64,000 bases of DNA from Escherichia phage vB_EcoS_HZ_ZJUN2. How positions within the stretch are numbered: the first letter of the stretch is position 1; each line of letters opens with the position of its first letter. This document shows positions 6,123 to 64,000 of the stretch, one piece after another. The stretch lies in sequence record PP216084. One strand, given 5' to 3'. Both the position numbers and the translations under genes were made by a program. Under the pieces are notes generated by a model. It searched no databases. It was not told the DNA's origin and saw only the letters and a program-made list of their open reading frames with translations.

Positions 6123-6147
6123 AATCCCTTTAATGGAGTTTATTATT

Positions 6148-7818
6148 ATGATTATTTCCGCAGAAAAACAAACCGTTATCCTGAAGCTGGCCGCTGACTT
6201 TAATTTTTATGGTAAACGTCTGCGCGCCACCCGGCTGGAAGTCTGCGACGATATATCAAAAGCGGTTTACGATACTGCAAAACACTCTACCGCGATTTGT
6301 GATTGGTTAGAAGCAAATAAACCAGCGAAACCGAAAACAGCGAAAGCGGTGAAAGCCATTAAAAACGACGAGCGCCCCGAAGCGGCTGGAATTATTTCTA
6401 GCACGGTGGAACAGTGGGAAGTAAAACAAGGTAAACGTTTTATTATTACATCGATTCAGAATAATACTTTCCCGCATAAAAACTTTTTAGCCTCGCTTGA
6501 GCAATATGCCCAATTTATTGGCGCTGATTTGCTTGTTTCTAAGTATATTTATAATAAAAACGGCTTTCAAAATGGTGAAGGCGCGGACGGTGTAAAATAT
6601 GATTCCGCGTTTGATAAATATATTTGCAGTAAAAACGTGTTTTTAAATAACCGCCGTTTTGCTTTCATGGCTGAAATTAATGTTTTGCCCACCGCAGATT
6701 ATCCGCTATCTGGATTCGCAGAAACTGCAACGGCGCTTAATCTGGAAGGTCTGGCAATTGGTCACGCTAAAATCACCGCCGAAAGCGTTCCAGCTTTAAA
6801 AGGTGAAGTGGTGCGCCGCATGTATTCCACCGGAACGGCAACGCTCAAAAACTACATTCAGCAGAAAGCAGGACAGAAAGCGGAGGCGCTGCATAATTTC
6901 GGGGCGCTGATTGTCGAGTTCGACGAAGACGGTGAGTTTTTTGTGCGCCAGCTTGAAACGATGGACGAAAGCGGCATGTTTTATGATCTGAATATCTGCG
7001 CCACTCCCGCCGGATGTTTTGAAACGTCGGGGCATGTTTTAGGTTTACAGTATGGCGACGTGCACGCTGAAAAATTAGATGAGGAGTGCGCCGCAGCGTC
7101 ATGGGGTCATGGTGATACTTATGGGCTAGTGGATATTCTTAAACCAAAATATCAATTCGTCCATGACGTTCACGATTTTACATCACGCAACCATCACAAC
7201 CGCGCTTCCGGTGTATTCCTAGCAAAACAATACGCCGCCGGACGTGATAAGGTTATGGATGATCTTATCGATACGGGGCGCGTACTGGAAGCAATGGAGC
7301 GCGATTTCTCGCAAACAATCATTGTTGAATCGAATCACGATCTGGCGTTATCTCGTTGGCTTGATGATCGAAATGCTAACATCAAAGACGACCCAGCAAA
7401 CGCCGAATTATATCACCGCCTGAATGCGGCTATCTATGCAGCTATCGCAAATCATGACGACACTTTCAACGTGCTAGATTATGCGCTGCGTAATGTTGCA
7501 GGCTGCGAGTTTAACGCCATTTTTTTAACGACTGATCAATCTTTTAAGATTGCAGGCATTGAGTGCGGTGTACACGGTCACAACGGCATTAACGGCAGCC
7601 GTGGAAACCCAAAACAATTTAAGAAATTGGGCAAATTAAACACCGGACACACCCACACCGCCAGCATTTACGGCGGCGTATACACGGCGGGCGTCGCTGG
7701 TTCCCTCGATATGGGCTACAACGTTGGCGCGTCAAGCTGGACGCAAACGCATTTAATTACATACGCAAACGGGCAACGCACTTTAATTGACTTTAAGAAC
7801 GGCAAATTTTTCGCATAA
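6148..7818 (+). CDS. A1: A1-like pre-early protein, 556 aa, calcineurin-like metallophosphatase (candidate DNase)
   Basis: Start moved to ATG at 6148 (the ATGGAG at 6133 is the RBS); motifs GDVHA, GHGD, ESNHD, GVHGHNG, TGHTHT; length equals recalled T5 A1. Confidence 0.6.
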   Translation: MIISAEKQTVILKLAADFNFYGKRLRATRLEVCDDISKAVYDTAKHSTAICDWLEANKPAKPKTAKAVKAIKNDERPEAAGIISSTVEQWEVKQGKRFIITSIQNNTFPHKNFLASLEQYAQFIGADLLVSKYIYNKNGFQNGEGADGVKYDSAFDKYICSKNVFLNNRRFAFMAEINVLPTADYPLSGFAETATALNLEGLAIGHAKITAESVPALKGEVVRRMYSTGTATLKNYIQQKAGQKAEALHNFGALIVEFDEDGEFFVRQLETMDESGMFYDLNICATPAGCFETSGHVLGLQYGDVHAEKLDEECAAASWGHGDTYGLVDILKPKYQFVHDVHDFTSRNHHNRASGVFLAKQYAAGRDKVMDDLIDTGRVLEAMERDFSQTIIVESNHDLALSRWLDDRNANIKDDPANAELYHRLNAAIYAAIANHDDTFNVLDYALRNVAGCEFNAIFLTTDQSFKIAGIECGVHGHNGINGSRGNPKQFKKLGKLNTGHTHTASIYGGVYTAGVAGSLDMGYNVGASSWTQTHLITYANGQRTLIDFKNGKFFA

Positions 7819-7828
7819 TTAAATTTAT

Positions 7829-7850
7829 AAGCGGGGTATATACCCCGCTT
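7829..7850 (+). terminator. Perfect 22 bp palindromic hairpin after A1-like gene
   Basis: aagcggggtata-taccccgctt. Confidence 0.45.
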
Positions 7851-7883
7851 ATGCCCCTTATTAAATTAATTGGAGTTATAAAC

Positions 7884-8276
7884 ATGAAAAAGCAAAATAT
7901 TCCATTCGATCGCGCTCAATCTTCCATTGTTCTGGTTTATTCAAATGGTGAGCGTTACCACGTCGAGGCCGGTCACGTTGTTGATGATTTAATCGAGTTT
8001 AATGAGGCGCTACAGATCACGACTTTCGCCTATACGCAAGGCCGCGCTAGTAGTCACATAAAGGCCGCAGGCGTTTATGTTGATACGGTGAAGCAGGAAA
8101 CGATTATCATCGACGCCGTAAAAGCTGGCCTAGCGTTTGCAGTTGTCGCACCTTGTCCCGCTTGCCTTGATGATCAGCTATCGAGTGCAAAGGTCTACAT
8201 TTGCGCGGGTATTCGTTCCCATGTATCCGGCGAAGATATTAGTTTTATCGCTGATGCGCTGGCTTATGGTCTTTGA
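7884..8276 (+). CDS. Hypothetical pre-early protein, 130 aa
   Basis: Start set to ATG at 7884 downstream of conserved ttaattGGAGtt; followed by hairpin 8290-8316. Confidence 0.5.
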   Translation: MKKQNIPFDRAQSSIVLVYSNGERYHVEAGHVVDDLIEFNEALQITTFAYTQGRASSHIKAAGVYVDTVKQETIIIDAVKAGLAFAVVAPCPACLDDQLSSAKVYICAGIRSHVSGEDISFIADALAYGL

Positions 8277-8289
8277 TAGTTGATTTATT

Positions 8290-8316
8290 ATTGCCCGCTG
8301 ATAAATAGCGGGCAAT
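8290..8316 (+). terminator. GC-rich hairpin after pre-early cassette
   Basis: attgcccgct-gataaat-agcgggcaat. Confidence 0.4.
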
Positions 8317-8356
8317 GCTGGATAAACTAAATCCCTTTAATGGAGAACGTAACAAA

Positions 8357-9091
8357 ATGAATCAAGTTAAAACGAATATTACCCGTAATTTTCCGCATGT
8401 TTCCCGCGTCATGATTTGGGATCTTGATGGCACTATCGTTAATTCATTCCATCGCGTAGCGCCTTGCTTTGATAGTGAGGGTAATCTAGATTTAAATAAG
8501 TATAAAAATGAGGCGTGCAAACATGATTTAATAATGCAAGATACACTCCTACCGCTTGTTACCTATATGCGCCAATGTATGAATGATGTTAATACGTTAA
8601 ACATTATTTGCACCGCTCGATTAATGAGCAAGTCGGACTATTATTATTTGCGCAAACAAGGATTGCGCGGGCGTGGGGATAGTAATATCCGTGTATTTTC
8701 CCGCGATACACTGCACAAATATTTTGAAGCTGATAAGGTTAGCGAAATATACCACAGCAAGGACGCAGTTTATAAAAGCTACTACTTTGAGTTATTTAAG
8801 CAGTTATATCCGAACGCTGATTTCACGATGATCGACGACCATAAAGGAGTATTGGCGGCGGCGGCATCATATGGATTTAAAACTCTGGACGCGCAAGCCG
8901 TTAATGATATTCTATCGATTGGGGTCACATTGATAGGTGAAACCTTTATCGACGAATCTCTTGAGGATGATAATGATTATCAGTTCCTAGCAGATCGCTT
9001 GCAATTATGTTGGGAAAGTATGACAGAAGAAGAACGCGCAGAATATAGTTGCAGCCCGCAACAATATATTGAGAAATTAAAAGTTGCGTAA
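8357..9091 (+). CDS. dmp: HAD-superfamily phosphatase, 244 aa, probable 5'-deoxyribonucleotidase (Dmp-like)
   Basis: Start set to ATG at 8357 after GGAGAACG RBS; HAD motif I DLDGT, motif II CTAR, C-terminal acidic DD; pre-early location. Confidence 0.5.
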   Translation: MNQVKTNITRNFPHVSRVMIWDLDGTIVNSFHRVAPCFDSEGNLDLNKYKNEACKHDLIMQDTLLPLVTYMRQCMNDVNTLNIICTARLMSKSDYYYLRKQGLRGRGDSNIRVFSRDTLHKYFEADKVSEIYHSKDAVYKSYYFELFKQLYPNADFTMIDDHKGVLAAAASYGFKTLDAQAVNDILSIGVTLIGETFIDESLEDDNDYQFLADRLQLCWESMTEEERAEYSCSPQQYIEKLKVA

Positions 9092-62512: not shown

Positions 62513-62593
62513 CCCAAAGGTGCTATCAGTGTCTTTGAGCATAGAGAAAACCGAGCCAAAATGACTCGGTAATCAGAGTTCAGCTAATAAAAA

Positions 62594-62986
62594 TCATTTG
62601 TCATTTAGGCCTGGAACATAGATCCCAACACGGTTTAATTGTTCTTTAGCTTCTTTGAGAATATCTGGAGTGTATTCCCAAATATCATCTTCCACCTGTA
62701 AAAGATGGGGCGAACAACCGTCATCCGGCACACGACATATGGCCAAACCACGTGGATGGAATATAGAGAAGTTTAGGGCAACAATCAAGCCCATAGCAGA
62801 CAATTCATTCCAATCCAATTCCCATTCCCCGGCGTATCCAGACAGGAAAACACCAACACAGGGATCATCTGTTTGCTGCTCAGGAAAAGTGAAGGAGGCT
62901 TGTCTTACCCCCAACCAACGTTGTAGCAGCTTTTCCGCACGCTTCACCAAACTAGGGTCAATCTGACGCCAAAATACTTGTTCCAT
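62594..62986 (-). CDS. Hypothetical protein, 130 aa, paralog of 62996-63424
   Basis: Shared motifs PC[VI]G, W[EK]ELD, MGL[IV], ALN, PGL[NT]. Confidence 0.55.
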   Translation of the reverse strand: MEQVFWRQIDPSLVKRAEKLLQRWLGVRQASFTFPEQQTDDPCVGVFLSGYAGEWELDWNELSAMGLIVALNFSIFHPRGLAICRVPDDGCSPHLLQVEDDIWEYTPDILKEAKEQLNRVGIYVPGLNDK

Positions 62987-62995
62987 TCTGCCTCC

Positions 62996-63424
62996 TTAAG
63001 CAGTTAAACCTGGGATCATATACCCGAAACGTCGAAGTTTCTGAATCCCCTCATTTACTTCTTCCGGTGAGTAAGACCAACCATAACGTTCATTAACTTG
63101 AAAACCAGGAGATTCACTAGTTTTATAGTTAACAACGAGGCGATGCTTAGCAGGCATAAACAGCTTATAGTTTAACGCAAAAACTAAGCCCATTTCATCT
63201 AACTCTTTCCAGCCGACAATCTCTTCAAGACCATCCTCTACCTGAACAATTAAACCAATACAGGGAGCCTCATCAATATCATCTTTAAAGGCAAAGGAGA
63301 TTTCGTTATTCTCACACCATATTTTCAAAGAGTTAATAGCCTCATTATACAGGCTAGCCGGGAGAGTACGCCAAAAGTTAACCAAAATTGGGTTAGCTTC
63401 TTTAGAGAATACATTATTGAACAT
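62996..63424 (-). CDS. Hypothetical protein, 142 aa, paralog of 62594-62986
   Basis: Same motif set and spacing as the neighbour; tandem arrangement with 9 nt gap. Confidence 0.55.
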   Translation of the reverse strand: MFNNVFSKEANPILVNFWRTLPASLYNEAINSLKIWCENNEISFAFKDDIDEAPCIGLIVQVEDGLEEIVGWKELDEMGLVFALNYKLFMPAKHRLVVNYKTSESPGFQVNERYGWSYSPEEVNEGIQKLRRFGYMIPGLTA

Positions 63425-63426
63425 AT

Positions 63427-63933
63427 TTACACCTTAAATTGCTGTAAGGATTTACACATTTCAAGATCTGGGCTAAATTCTAGCATATAGCTAACAGCTT
63501 TTAAATCTTGAAGATTTATCCCAGTCCTACCGTTGACTATAACCGTTGGATACTGATACATCATAGCACCCGCATCATCAAGCACACACCAATGTTTGAG
63601 CTTATGCTTTTCAACGAAGCGAAGAACAGAATTACCCCTAGATAATCCACCCCCAGTAAAATCCGTTGTACCAAGAAAACGATCGATAAGACCTAATCCG
63701 GTCATAATCCGAACGTTCTCCATCTCATTTCTAACAGAGAACCAAGATGATACTCCAACAATCATTATCGGAGAAAGACGAATAAAGTCCTGAAAAGCCT
63801 TGAGAAGCGGTTTGAAAACCCAGTCACTTCCAAAGAAAATCTTTTCATCATCAGGTGCATGATGGTGGGAGATGCTCGAATTGAGCACTCCATCAATGTC
63901 CAGAAAAATAATTGGAGTATTACTTATTTCCAT
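63427..63933 (-). CDS. HAD-like hydrolase (putative phosphatase), 168 aa
   Basis: N-terminal IIFLDIDGVLNS (HAD motif I) and later VLDDAG. Confidence 0.5.
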   Translation of the reverse strand: MEISNTPIIFLDIDGVLNSSISHHHAPDDEKIFFGSDWVFKPLLKAFQDFIRLSPIMIVGVSSWFSVRNEMENVRIMTGLGLIDRFLGTTDFTGGGLSRGNSVLRFVEKHKLKHWCVLDDAGAMMYQYPTVIVNGRTGINLQDLKAVSYMLEFSPDLEMCKSLQQFKV

Positions 63934-64000
63934 TTTTGTTCCTTTCTAAGAACGTATCATACTCAACCGTATCAACATATATAACACCATAGTCATCGGA

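What the first reader, a model, noticed from the sequence alone, without database searches (positions are those of the whole stretch)
8357..9091. Two unrelated HAD-type phosphatases (8357-9091 and 63427-63933) in pre-early and early regions
Both carry HAD motif I (DLDGT and DIDGVL) but differ in size and cap region. One is likely the Dmp 5'-deoxyribonucleotidase; the second may dephosphorylate a different nucleotide pool or be involved in nucleic-acid end repair.
Basis: partly seen in the sequence, partly recalled or inferred. Interest (0 to 1): 0.35.

Follow-up and report, generated by a model that had tools for sequence, protein, structure and literature searches.

The report
Two known phage HAD phosphatases
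This T5-like phage window does encode two very distantly related HAD-fold phosphatases: the well-studied Dmp enzyme, which destroys host deoxynucleotides, and a small untested phosphatase already described in the literature as the neighbour of a phage sirtuin, so the finding is correct but ordinary.

Summary
Confirmed, and ordinary. The window is a T5-like (Demerecviridae) genome segment.

ORF 8357-9091(+) is 98% identical over all 244 aa to T5 Dmp (T5.001), the pre-early deoxynucleoside-5'-monophosphatase. ORF 63427-63933(-) is 98% identical to T5.105 and is a full-length member of Pfam HAD_SAK_2 (E 8e-20).

Both keep all four HAD motifs, invariant across their families:
- Dmp: D22/D24/T26, T86, K140, D160-D161.
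- ORF2: D12/D14, S62-S63, R99, D119-D120.

Both give HAD-fold models. Dmp carries a ~50-residue helical insert after motif I and a ~65-residue acidic C-terminal tail. ORF2 is a minimal, capless HAD that most resembles MDP-1, KdsC and PNKP. They share nothing detectable beyond motif I and are the only two such ORFs in the window.

Dmp's function is known from T5 genetics and biochemistry. ORF2 has no experimental function. It lies in an early operon with a sirtuin (just beyond the window edge) and two DUF7415 paralogues. That sirtuin plus "Swiss-army-knife-like" HAD neighbourhood was published in 2022 with a predicted NAD-dependent RNA-repair role.

New here:
- Relatives of ORF2 sit directly beside NAD+ reconstitution genes (NARP1, NARP2) in other phages.
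- RefSeq and PHROG mislabel ORF2 orthologues as "Sir2".

The parts
8357..9091 (+). dmp: deoxynucleoside-5'-monophosphatase, 244 aa, a HAD phosphatase. Motif I D22-L-D24-G-T26 (nt 8420-8434), motif II T86 (8612-8614), motif III K140 (8774-8776), motif IV D160-D161 (8834-8839). Acidic helical C-terminal tail from about residue 180 to 244.
   Evidence: 98% identical to T5.001. The motifs are invariant in 37 homologues. The model has pLDDT 84.2 and its top PDB matches are all HAD enzymes, including nucleotidases and T4 PNKP. phrog_415 E 2e-56. All homologues carry the precomputed Pfam PF26880.
8283..8323 (+). Strong RNA hairpin in the gap between the T5.002 homologue and dmp. It overlaps the upstream in-frame ATG at 8315 and argues for the 8357 start.
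   Evidence: MFE -20.7 kcal/mol, z -5.35, 0 of 200 shuffles fold as well. It has no T-run and was not called as a terminator.
6133..7818 (+). A1 homologue, the pre-early DNA transfer and host-DNA-degradation protein. Context for dmp.
   Evidence: phrog_1745 E 1e-243. Same order as T5.004-T5.001.
7851..8276 (+). T5.002 homologue, a pre-early gene of unknown function immediately upstream of dmp.
   Evidence: phrog_4576 E 5e-80. T5 gene order.
63427..63933 (-). T5.105 orthologue: stand-alone capless HAD phosphatase of Pfam HAD_SAK_2, 168 aa. Motif I D12-I-D14-G-V16 (nt 63886-63900), motif II S62-S63 (63745-63750), motif III R99 (63637-63639), motif IV D119-D120 (63574-63579).
   Evidence: Pfam PF18143 E 7.7e-20. 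98% identical to T5.105. Motifs invariant in 41 diverse homologues. Model pLDDT 94.5, pTM 0.91. Best PDB matches are MDP-1, AQ2171/KdsC-type and other HADs.
63920..64000 (-). 3' end of the upstream small ORF (T5.104 homologue). It runs off the window edge and its stop overlaps the ORF2 start by 14 nt, so ORF2 lies inside an operon that continues beyond the window to the sirtuin gene.
   Evidence: Read directly from the sequence. The same arrangement is seen in T5 and HdH2.
62996..63424 (-). DUF7415 protein (T5.106 homologue), starting 2 nt after the ORF2 stop.
   Evidence: Pfam PF24187 E 2.6e-35, phrog_2502.
62594..62986 (-). Second DUF7415 paralogue (T5.107 homologue), the last gene of the operon.
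   Evidence: Pfam PF24187 E 1.3e-31. Paralogy with the first copy at E 1e-16 to 1e-18.
62550..62570 (-). Intrinsic-terminator-like hairpin that closes the Sir2-HAD-DUF7415 operon.
   Evidence: 9-bp stem with 5 GC pairs followed by a T-run. A terminator is annotated at the equivalent place in T5 and HdH2.

Best explanation
The window encodes two HAD-superfamily phosphatases that use the same chemistry. An Asp nucleophile at the first position of DxD forms an aspartyl-phosphate. The second Asp acts as general acid/base. The motif IV acidic pair holds Mg2+. The two enzymes belong to separate programmes of a T5-like phage.

(1) Dmp (8357-9091).
- Identity with the T5 pre-early deoxynucleoside-5'-monophosphatase is shown.
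- From the T5 literature: after A1-dependent degradation of host DNA, Dmp converts the released dNMPs to deoxynucleosides, which leave the cell. The phage then makes its own dNTPs with its own NrdAB/NrdD, Thy and Frd enzymes.
- Inferred: its helical insert after motif I closes over a small nucleotide substrate.

(2) ORF2 (63427-63933), the T5.105 orthologue.
- Shown by conservation and fold: it is an active, stand-alone, capless HAD_SAK_2 phosphatase.
- Shown in T5 and HdH2: it is co-transcribed early with a sirtuin (T5.102, just outside the window), small ORFs and two DUF7415 proteins.
- Inferred, probability about 0.4: it removes a ribose-linked phosphomonoester in the sirtuin-centred, NAD+-consuming pathway predicted by Iyer et al. 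2022. The substrate would be either a 2'/3'-phosphate RNA end or the ADP-ribose-phosphate by-product of sirtuin-mediated phosphate removal. Which of these steps it performs cannot be decided here.
For: Dmp:
- 238/244 identity to T5.001, with T5 synteny to A1 and T5.002 inside the terminal repeat.
- D22, D24, T26, T86, K140, D160 and D161 are invariant.
- In the model the motifs lie at the C-terminal ends of strands 17-21, 80-85 and 155-160, and in helix 136-150, as expected for a HAD.
- Foldseek top hits are all HAD enzymes. They include XMP phosphatase, AphA, e(P4), human cytosolic deoxyribonucleotidase and T4 PNKP.
- Function and phenotypes of dmp come from T5 work. A dmp deletion delays infection, ectopic expression is toxic, and Clover-defence escape mutations map to dmp.

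ORF2:
- Pfam HAD_SAK_2, 72 bits.
- F10, D12, D14, G15, V16, S62, R99, D119, D120 and G138 are invariant across 41 sequences with mean column identity 24%.
- High-confidence model. The nearest solved folds are the capless HADs MDP-1 and KdsC-type, with mammalian PNKP further down the list.
- The start overlaps the upstream ORF, a 2-nt gap separates it from the downstream gene, and a terminator follows the second DUF7415 gene.
- Sir2-HAD linkage is kept in divergent T5-like contigs (38-40% identity) even though the gene order differs.
- The sirtuin plus SAK-like HAD neighbourhood, typified by the Tequintavirus SP15, and its predicted role are published.
Against: - No experiment addresses ORF2 or any HAD_SAK_2 protein in the literature searched.
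- No RNA ligase, cluster-type metallophosphoesterase or NARP gene was detected in the window with the queries used. An RNA-repair pathway would therefore be incomplete unless host enzymes take part.
- Across 32 lineages of phage HAD_SAK_2 loci the neighbours vary: metallophosphoesterase in 7, NARP in 5, RNA ligase in 4, and Sir2 only in T5-likes. The family may not have a single substrate.
- Synteny within one phage family is weak evidence of functional coupling.
- For Dmp, the local Pfam copy gives only a sub-threshold HAD_2 hit at E 0.12. The HAD assignment rests on motifs plus a predicted structure, with modest TM-scores of 0.37-0.46.
Confidence: 0.72

Rival explanations
1. ORF2 is a small-molecule phosphatase for phosphorylated NAD+ fragments, independent of RNA repair. 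For example, it would convert ADP-ribose-1''-phosphate to ADP-ribose. That would make it a HAD-fold analogue of the Macro-domain Adpp, which lets phage NAD+ reconstitution overcome RES-type NAD+ phosphorolysis. It would help the phage keep NAD+ for its NAD-dependent ligase and sirtuin.
For: - In Serratia phage ChuuTotoro (L004), a 38%-identical HAD_SAK_2 gene overlaps by 4 nt the start of a PRPS-like gene. That gene is followed by a 595-aa protein matching the Namat crystal structures 9W5X/9W5W at E 1e-115, against 1e-48 for cellular NAMPT. This is a NARP1 operon.
- The same layout occurs in L006.
- In Vibrio phage nt-1 the HAD lies directly upstream of the NMNAT-Nudix gene.
- NARP2 genes lie 2-4 kb away in L036 and L056.
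- NARP genes occur near the HAD in 5 of 32 lineages. About 0.1-0.8 would be expected from 5.4% phage prevalence, or from a generous 25%.
- A phosphatase added to NARP1 is a proven strategy.
Against: - The published NARP1-associated phosphatase is a Macro domain. Neither that paper nor its tables mention a HAD.
- The window carries no NARP genes by the queries used.
- Auxiliary metabolic genes cluster in phage early regions anyway, which inflates apparent enrichment.
- L004 and L006 belong to the same phage group.
Confidence: 0.2
2. ORF2 is a second nucleotide-pool phosphatase acting on a mononucleotide class that Dmp does not take, such as ribonucleotides, 3'-nucleotides or modified dNMPs.
For: - It lies in the early nucleotide-metabolism region, downstream of nrdD, phoH and nrdAB.
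- Many HADs are nucleotidases.
- A P-loop dNK-like kinase lies directly downstream of a relative in L072.
Against: - The capless architecture lacks the cap that gives most HAD nucleotidases their specificity.
- No sequence or fold match favours known nucleotidases. The top hits are MDP-1 and KdsC-type.
- The conserved partners are the sirtuin and NAD genes, not nucleotide-synthesis genes.
Confidence: 0.13
3. ORF2 is a protein phosphatase. It would be an MDP-1 or CTD-phosphatase-like capless HAD that dephosphorylates a host or phage protein.
For: - The best solved-structure match is MDP-1 (1u7p, E 3.6e-3, TM about 0.53).
- One relative carries an overlapping NIF (PF03031) hit.
- BFVD lists a CTD-like phosphatase among the matches.
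Against: - The matches are weak and reflect the shared minimal HAD core.
- No kinase or substrate partner is conserved nearby.
- The family was defined from nucleic-acid-repair contexts.
Confidence: 0.08
4. The database labels are right: ORF2 is a Sir2 NAD-dependent deacetylase, and ORF1 is a polynucleotide kinase.
For: - RefSeq names T5.105 and its orthologues 'Sir2 (NAD-dependent deacetylase)'.
- phrog_18062 carries that name.
- phrog_415 and one GenBank record call Dmp orthologues 'polynucleotide kinase'.
Against: - ORF2 has no SIR2 Pfam hit. It has a full-length HAD_SAK_2 hit and a HAD-fold model. The real SIR2-domain gene is T5.102, a separate gene nearby.
- Dmp has no P-loop kinase domain. 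It is a single HAD domain plus a tail.
Confidence: 0.01

Closest known systems
Bacteriophage T5 Dmp (T5.001, deoxynucleoside-5'-monophosphatase)
   Same: 98% identical over all 244 residues. Same position next to the T5.002 and A1 homologues in the terminal-repeat (pre-early) region. All catalytic residues are identical.
   Different: Six substitutions, none in a motif. The T5.003 homologue between A1 and T5.002 is missing in this phage.
T5.105 / Pfam PF18143 HAD_SAK_2, and the sirtuin plus 'Swiss-army-knife-like' HAD neighbourhood of Tequintavirus SP15 (Iyer et al. 2022)
   Same: 98% identical to T5.105. Full-length HAD_SAK_2 match. Same operon layout, with two DUF7415 genes and a terminator downstream.
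   Different: It is a stand-alone domain, not part of a multidomain 'Swiss Army Knife' repair protein. The sirtuin gene lies beyond the window edge.
T4 polynucleotide kinase/3'-phosphatase (PNKP), phosphatase domain
   Same: HAD chemistry in a small domain. Dmp's model matches 2ia5 and 5uj0 (20% and 17% identity, probability 1.0). Distant members of the Dmp core family give weak HAD_PNKP Pfam hits and phrog_505/4889 hits.
   Different: Neither window protein has a kinase domain. Dmp's documented substrates are free 5'-dNMPs, not 3'-phosphate ends. The window Dmp itself does not reach any Pfam threshold for HAD_PNKP.
Cellular 5'(3')-deoxyribonucleotidases (human cdN/mdN) and class B/C acid phosphatases (AphA, e(P4))
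   Same: HAD nucleotidases with the same reaction as Dmp. They appear among Dmp's fold matches (2i7d, 1z88, 3ocx).
   Different: No sequence-level relationship: PDB sequence searches find nothing significant. They are functional analogues within the superfamily, not orthologues.
Adpp, the Macro-domain ADPR-1''-phosphate phosphatase of extended NARP1 operons
   Same: Relatives of ORF2 occupy an equivalent place, directly attached to a NARP1 operon. Both are small phosphatases.
   Different: A completely different fold, Macro versus HAD. No activity data exist for the HAD. The window phage has no NARP1 by the queries used.
MDP-1 (magnesium-dependent phosphatase 1) and KdsC-type capless HADs
   Same: They are the best solved-structure matches to ORF2. 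Both are minimal C0 architectures of about 160 residues.
   Different: 13-18% identity and E around 4e-3 or weaker. Unrelated biology.

Membership tests
HAD superfamily (both ORFs) | Motif I DxDx[T/V] at the end of strand 1, supplying the Asp nucleophile and the Asp+2 general acid | tested here: met
   Dmp has D22-L-D24-G-T26 after strand 17-21. ORF2 has D12-I-D14-G-V16 after strand 8-11. Both are invariant in family alignments.
HAD superfamily (both ORFs) | Motif II (S/T), motif III (K/R) and motif IV (DD or similar) in canonical order and structural positions | tested here: met
   Dmp has T86, K140 and D160-D161. ORF2 has S62-S63, R99 and D119-D120. All are invariant and lie after strands 2 and 4, or in the helix before strand 4.
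HAD superfamily (both ORFs) | Rossmannoid alpha/beta fold recognisable against solved HAD structures | tested here: met
   All 50 listed Foldseek matches for Dmp are HAD enzymes, with probability 0.96-1.0. The top 12 for ORF2 are HAD enzymes, with probability 0.66-0.99. TM-scores are modest (0.35-0.55).
HAD superfamily (both ORFs) | Mg2+-dependent phosphoryl transfer through an aspartyl-phosphate intermediate | not testable with these tools
   Needs enzymology, for example BeF3 trapping and a D-to-N mutant.
T5 Dmp family (precomputed Pfam PF26880) | Full-length orthology to T5.001 and its location in the pre-early terminal-repeat block | tested here: met
   98% identity with no gaps. Neighbours are the A1 and T5.002 homologues. 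All 42 homologue clusters carry PF26880.
T5 Dmp family (precomputed Pfam PF26880) | 5'-dNMP-specific phosphatase activity | not testable with these tools
   Taken from T5 literature cited (Mozer & Warner 1977). The primary paper is not held.
Pfam HAD_SAK_2 (PF18143), for ORF2 | Score above the gathering threshold with full domain coverage | tested here: met
   72.1 bits against 27.5. Residues 8-143 align to profile positions 1-138 of 139.
'Swiss Army Knife' multidomain RNA-repair proteins, for ORF2 | HAD domain fused to, or operonic with, other RNA-repair domains such as ligase, kinase or 2H | tested here: not met
   ORF2 is a single domain of 168 aa. Of the 120 best listed relatives (at least 7984 found), all carry PF18143 and one adds an overlapping NIF hit; nearly all are 150-200 aa. 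No RNA ligase, kinase or metallophosphoesterase was detected in the window by the queries used.
Sirtuin-centred NAD-dependent RNA-repair neighbourhood (Iyer et al. 2022, type 3), for ORF2 | A SIR2-domain gene in the same conserved neighbourhood as the HAD | tested here: inconclusive
   This is met in T5, HdH2 and divergent T5-like contigs. In this window the sirtuin position lies beyond base 64000, so only the 3' end of the intervening small ORF is visible.
Sir2 / sirtuin (the database label of ORF2) | SIR2 domain (PF02146) | tested here: not met
   No SIR2 hit at E<=1. Only HAD_SAK_2 was found. The fold is HAD.
Polynucleotide kinase/phosphatase (the PHROG 415 label of Dmp) | P-loop 5'-kinase domain joined to the HAD 3'-phosphatase domain | tested here: not met
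   Dmp is one HAD domain plus a helical tail and has no P-loop. Only sub-threshold HAD_PNKP hits occur, and only in distant relatives.
Adpp (NARP1-associated ADPR-1''-P phosphatase), for ORF2 | Macro domain inside a NARP1 operon | tested here: not met
   ORF2 has a HAD fold, not a Macro domain. No Adps or Namat is present in the window.

The most novel reading that the evidence does not exclude
The T5.105-type stand-alone HAD_SAK_2 proteins would be a widespread, unrecognised class of phage phosphatases acting on phosphorylated ADP-ribose or NAD+ fragments, such as ADPR-1''-phosphate. They would be a HAD-fold counterpart of the Macro-domain Adpp. They would work with phage sirtuins in T5-like phages and with NARP1/NARP2 NAD+-reconstitution operons in other phages to counter NAD+-targeting bacterial immunity.
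Probability: 0.2. Interest if true: 0.6.

Novelty: already known. Interest (0 to 1): 0.15.

Why it matters
Dmp is a textbook part of T5 host takeover. Recent work ties it to virulence, to toxicity and to escape from the dNTP-sensing Clover defence. Recognising it here adds only another orthologue.

The second enzyme is more useful as a pointer:
- It belongs to a very large family (at least ~8000 clusters) of small phage and bacterial HAD phosphatases that have no biochemical data.
- It is mislabelled 'Sir2' in RefSeq and PHROGs, so automated annotation spreads the error.
- It recurs next to NAD+-handling genes: a sirtuin, NARP1 and NARP2.

If its substrate proved to be an ADP-ribose phosphate or an RNA 2'/3'-phosphate end, that would fill in a step of phage NAD+-linked counter-defence or RNA repair. 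As it stands, the finding confirms existing annotation and a published prediction.

Tried and rejected
- Sequence searches of both proteins and both family profiles against PDB sequences gave nothing significant beyond motif I. Only predicted structures plus Foldseek placed them.
- NCBIfam and PADLOC gave no useful hits.
- DUF7415 as a conserved partner of the HAD is not supported. It was found next to the HAD only in close T5 relatives and 4 kb away in Vibrio phage nt-1. It was absent from divergent T5-like loci and from the other loci.
- A single conserved neighbourhood for the whole HAD_SAK_2 family was rejected, because the contexts are heterogeneous.
- The 'Sir2' and 'polynucleotide kinase' labels were rejected as annotation errors.
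- The ATG at 8315 as the dmp start was rejected. It lies inside the hairpin, and T5 and all homologues start at the equivalent of 8357.
- The original Dmp enzymology paper and the Burroughs & Aravind 2016 RNA-repair paper are not held. No paper mentions HAD_SAK_2 or PF18143 by name.
- The supplements of the aRES/NARP1-AP preprint do not list ChuuTotoro, nt-1 or any HAD.
Full report
**Source of the window.** Megablast of both regions hits hundreds of T5-like phages (Demerecviridae) of Escherichia and Salmonella. Gene order matches T5 (NC_005859) read as the reverse complement from its right end. The A1 homologue is at 6133-7818, the T5.002 homologue at 7851-8276 and dmp at 8357-9091, all belonging to the terminal-repeat (pre-early) block. 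The second ORF corresponds to T5.105 in the early region.

**Observation.** Both ORFs are real and lie at the stated coordinates.
- ORF1 (8357-9091, +, 244 aa) is 238/244 identical to T5 Dmp. The start at 8357 has a GGAG 11 nt upstream. The earlier in-frame ATG at 8315 sits inside a very stable hairpin (-20.7 kcal/mol, z -5.35).
- ORF2 (63427-63933, -, 168 aa) is 164/168 identical to T5.105.
- A six-frame motif scan finds no third HAD motif-I ORF in the 64 kb.

**Are they HAD phosphatases?** For ORF2 the answer is direct. Pfam HAD_SAK_2 (PF18143) scores E 7.7e-20, 72 bits against a 27.5-bit cut-off, and covers the whole profile.

For Dmp the local Pfam copy gives only a sub-threshold HAD_2 hit on motif I (E 0.12). 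PHROGs places it in phrog_415, and every homologue carries the newer Pfam PF26880. I therefore used conservation and structure.
- In 37 Dmp homologues, D22, D24, T26, T86, K140, D160 and D161 are invariant.
- In 41 HAD_SAK_2 proteins drawn from many phage groups (mean column identity 24%), F10, D12, D14, G15, V16, S62, R99, D119, D120 and G138 are invariant.
- AlphaFold2 models are confident: Dmp has mean pLDDT 84.2, above 90 through residues ~20-180; ORF2 has 94.5 and pTM 0.91. Each motif sits where a HAD fold requires it.
- Foldseek against the PDB returns only HAD enzymes at the top for both proteins.

**How the two differ.**
- BLASTP between them is not significant (E 0.47). Profile-profile comparison aligns only 33 columns around motif I (E 0.06).
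- Dmp has a ~50-residue, mostly helical insert between motifs I and II, at the C1 cap position. It also has a ~65-residue acidic helical C-terminal tail of low confidence.
- An exhaustive HMM search shows that the ~175-residue Dmp core has 412 representative relatives. Most are 150-200 aa and lack the tail.
- Sampled distant relatives all fall in phrog_415. Several give weak Pfam HAD_PNKP or NIF hits. T4 PNKP appears among Dmp's fold matches, next to the nucleotidases AphA, e(P4), XMP phosphatase and human cdN.
- So by remote homology Dmp, not ORF2, is the one nearest the polynucleotide 3'-phosphatase clade. It has no kinase domain, so the 'polynucleotide kinase' label on phrog_415 and on one GenBank record is wrong for it.
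- ORF2 has only a short helix and a beta-hairpin between motifs I and II, so it is a capless (C0-type) HAD. Its best solved matches are MDP-1, AQ2171/KdsC-type enzymes and, further down, mammalian PNKP.
- In the viral structure library it matches many uncharacterised phage and giant-virus proteins.

**What Dmp does.** This is established for T5, not newly inferred.
- Dmp is the pre-early dNMP phosphatase. It turns the nucleotides released by A1-dependent host DNA degradation into nucleosides, while the phage makes its own dNTPs.
- dmp is dispensable, but deleting it lengthens the eclipse and latent periods and lowers virulence.
- Ectopic expression is toxic and gives a phenotype resembling thymine starvation.
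- Escape mutations from the Clover defence map to dmp, including an S201 stop that removes the C-terminal tail.

**What ORF2 does.** No experiment was found.

Context in the window:
- The stop of an upstream small ORF overlaps the ORF2 start by 14 nt.
- A DUF7415 gene starts 2 nt after the ORF2 stop, and a second DUF7415 paralogue follows.
- A terminator-like hairpin at 62550-62570 closes the unit.

Context in T5 and HdH2: the same unit begins after nrdD and contains a true SIR2-domain gene (T5.102) two small genes upstream of the HAD. That gene lies just beyond this window's edge.

In divergent T5-like contigs, where the HAD is only 38-40% identical, the SIR2 gene is still within one or two genes of it. 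The order is reversed and DUF7415 is absent.

This neighbourhood is already published. [quoted passage not shown] They propose that the sirtuin acts like KptA/Tpt1 to remove RNA 2'-phosphates using NAD+. In their proposal, the HAD either prepares the RNA end or processes the ADP-ribose phosphate by-product.

**Wider survey of the family.**
- A pattern scan of viral contigs plus contig look-ups gave 54 loci in all. The lineage count used the 51 in which the HAD was recovered, which fall into 32 lineages at 50% HAD identity.
- The family is very large: at least 7984 clusters at E<=1e-5. The 120 best listed are nearly all stand-alone proteins of 150-200 residues.
- Neighbours within about 6 kb vary:

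| Neighbour | Lineages |
|---|---|
| Small metallophosphoesterase | 7 |
| NARP (NAD+ reconstitution) genes | 5 |
| RNA ligase (Rnl1 or Rnl2 type) | 4 |
| Sirtuin | T5-likes only |

- An HD-domain protein occurs near the HAD in 6 loci, and a P-loop kinase lies directly downstream of it in 1 locus.
- In Serratia phage ChuuTotoro the HAD gene overlaps by 4 nt a PRPS-like gene. That gene is followed by a protein matching the Namat crystal structures at E 1e-115, against 1e-48 for cellular NAMPT. This is a NARP1 operon.
- A related contig has the same layout.
- In Vibrio phage nt-1 the HAD lies directly upstream of the NMNAT-Nudix gene of NARP2.
- Two further loci carry Nampt plus Nudix/NMNAT 2-4 kb away.
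- NARP1 and NARP2 together occur in 5.4% of phages. A rough Poisson estimate gives P about 4e-7. Assuming that 25% of large phages carry them gives P about 1e-3.
- These figures ignore the general clustering of auxiliary genes, so I treat the association as suggestive only.
- It is notable because a phosphatase added to NARP1, the Macro-domain Adpp that converts ADPR-1''-phosphate to ADPR, was recently shown to defeat RES-type NAD+ phosphorolysis. That study mentions no HAD.

**Verdict on mechanism.**
- Shown: both proteins have intact HAD catalytic machinery and fold. ORF1 is Dmp. ORF2 is a stand-alone HAD_SAK_2 protein inside the sirtuin operon.
- Inferred: ORF2 removes a ribose-linked phosphomonoester in an NAD+-linked pathway.
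- My estimates: about 0.4 for a role within the sirtuin-centred RNA-end or ADPr-phosphate clean-up pathway; about 0.2 for a role as an NAD-fragment phosphatase independent of RNA repair; about 0.13 for a nucleotide-pool phosphatase; about 0.08 for a protein phosphatase.
- No RNA ligase, cluster-type metallophosphoesterase or NARP gene was found in the window with the queries used. This weakens a self-contained RNA-repair pathway in this phage.

**Novelty and score.** Both genes are 98% identical to annotated T5 genes. One function is textbook. The other's family and neighbourhood are already described computationally. The finding is correct and well read by the first stage, but it is ordinary. 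The useful by-products are an annotation correction ('Sir2' for T5.105 orthologues, 'polynucleotide kinase' for Dmp orthologues) and the lead that HAD_SAK_2 genes attach to NARP operons.

Noticed in passing
window 63427-63933 (-); NC_005859 57588-58094; L002 4928-5434: T5.105 orthologues are named 'Sir2 (NAD-dependent deacetylase)' in RefSeq records, and phrog_18062 carries the same name. The protein has only a HAD_SAK_2 domain. The true SIR2-domain gene is T5.102, a separate gene nearby. The mislabel is spread by automated annotation.
   Followed up: yes
window 8357-9091 (+): Dmp orthologues are annotated inconsistently across phage records: dNMP monophosphatase, hypothetical protein, or polynucleotide kinase. 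phrog_415 is named 'polynucleotide kinase', although members sampled here are single HAD domains with no kinase.
   Followed up: partly
window 8894-9091 (+), Dmp residues ~180-244: The T5-type Dmp carries a conserved, acidic, helical C-terminal tail with low pLDDT. Most of the 412 relatives of the catalytic core lack it. A published Clover-defence escape mutant (Bas28 Dmp S201stop) truncates exactly this tail, which suggests a regulatory or interaction role.
   Followed up: partly
window 8283-8323 (+): A very stable hairpin (-20.7 kcal/mol, z -5.35) lies in the gap between the T5.002 homologue and dmp. It has no T-run, so it is not a canonical terminator. It could be an RNA-processing or stability element.
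   Followed up: partly
window 7819-7852: The T5.003 homologue is absent. Only 32 nt separate A1 from the T5.002 homologue, and that gap holds an 11-bp-stem GC-rich palindrome (7827-7852).
   Followed up: no
window 62594-63424 (-): Two tandem DUF7415 paralogues follow the HAD gene. A DUF7415 protein also lies 4 kb from the HAD_SAK_2 gene in the unrelated Vibrio phage nt-1 (L071 10657-11187). It is absent from divergent T5-like loci. Its function is unknown.
   Followed up: partly
L004 5001-8217; L006 5001-8519; L071 6001-7608; L036 4032-9010; L056 2073-8453: HAD_SAK_2 genes lie directly upstream of, or within 4 kb of, NAD+ reconstitution genes in other phages: the NARP1 pair Adps+Namat and the NARP2 pair Nampt+NMNAT-Nudix. 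L036 carries two tandem HAD_SAK_2 genes. This association was not mentioned in the NARP papers read.
   Followed up: partly
BFVD entry A0A8S5VCN3 (rank 48): A 648-aa 'nicotinamide phosphoribosyltransferase' from an uncultured siphovirus weakly matches the ORF2 HAD model (E 0.13). It is about 150 residues longer than typical Nampt and could be a HAD-Nampt fusion.
   Followed up: no
L072 6001-7004: In one metagenomic T4-like contig the HAD_SAK_2 gene overlaps the start of a P-loop dNK/AAA_18-type kinase gene. This is a split arrangement reminiscent of polynucleotide kinase-phosphatase.
   Followed up: no
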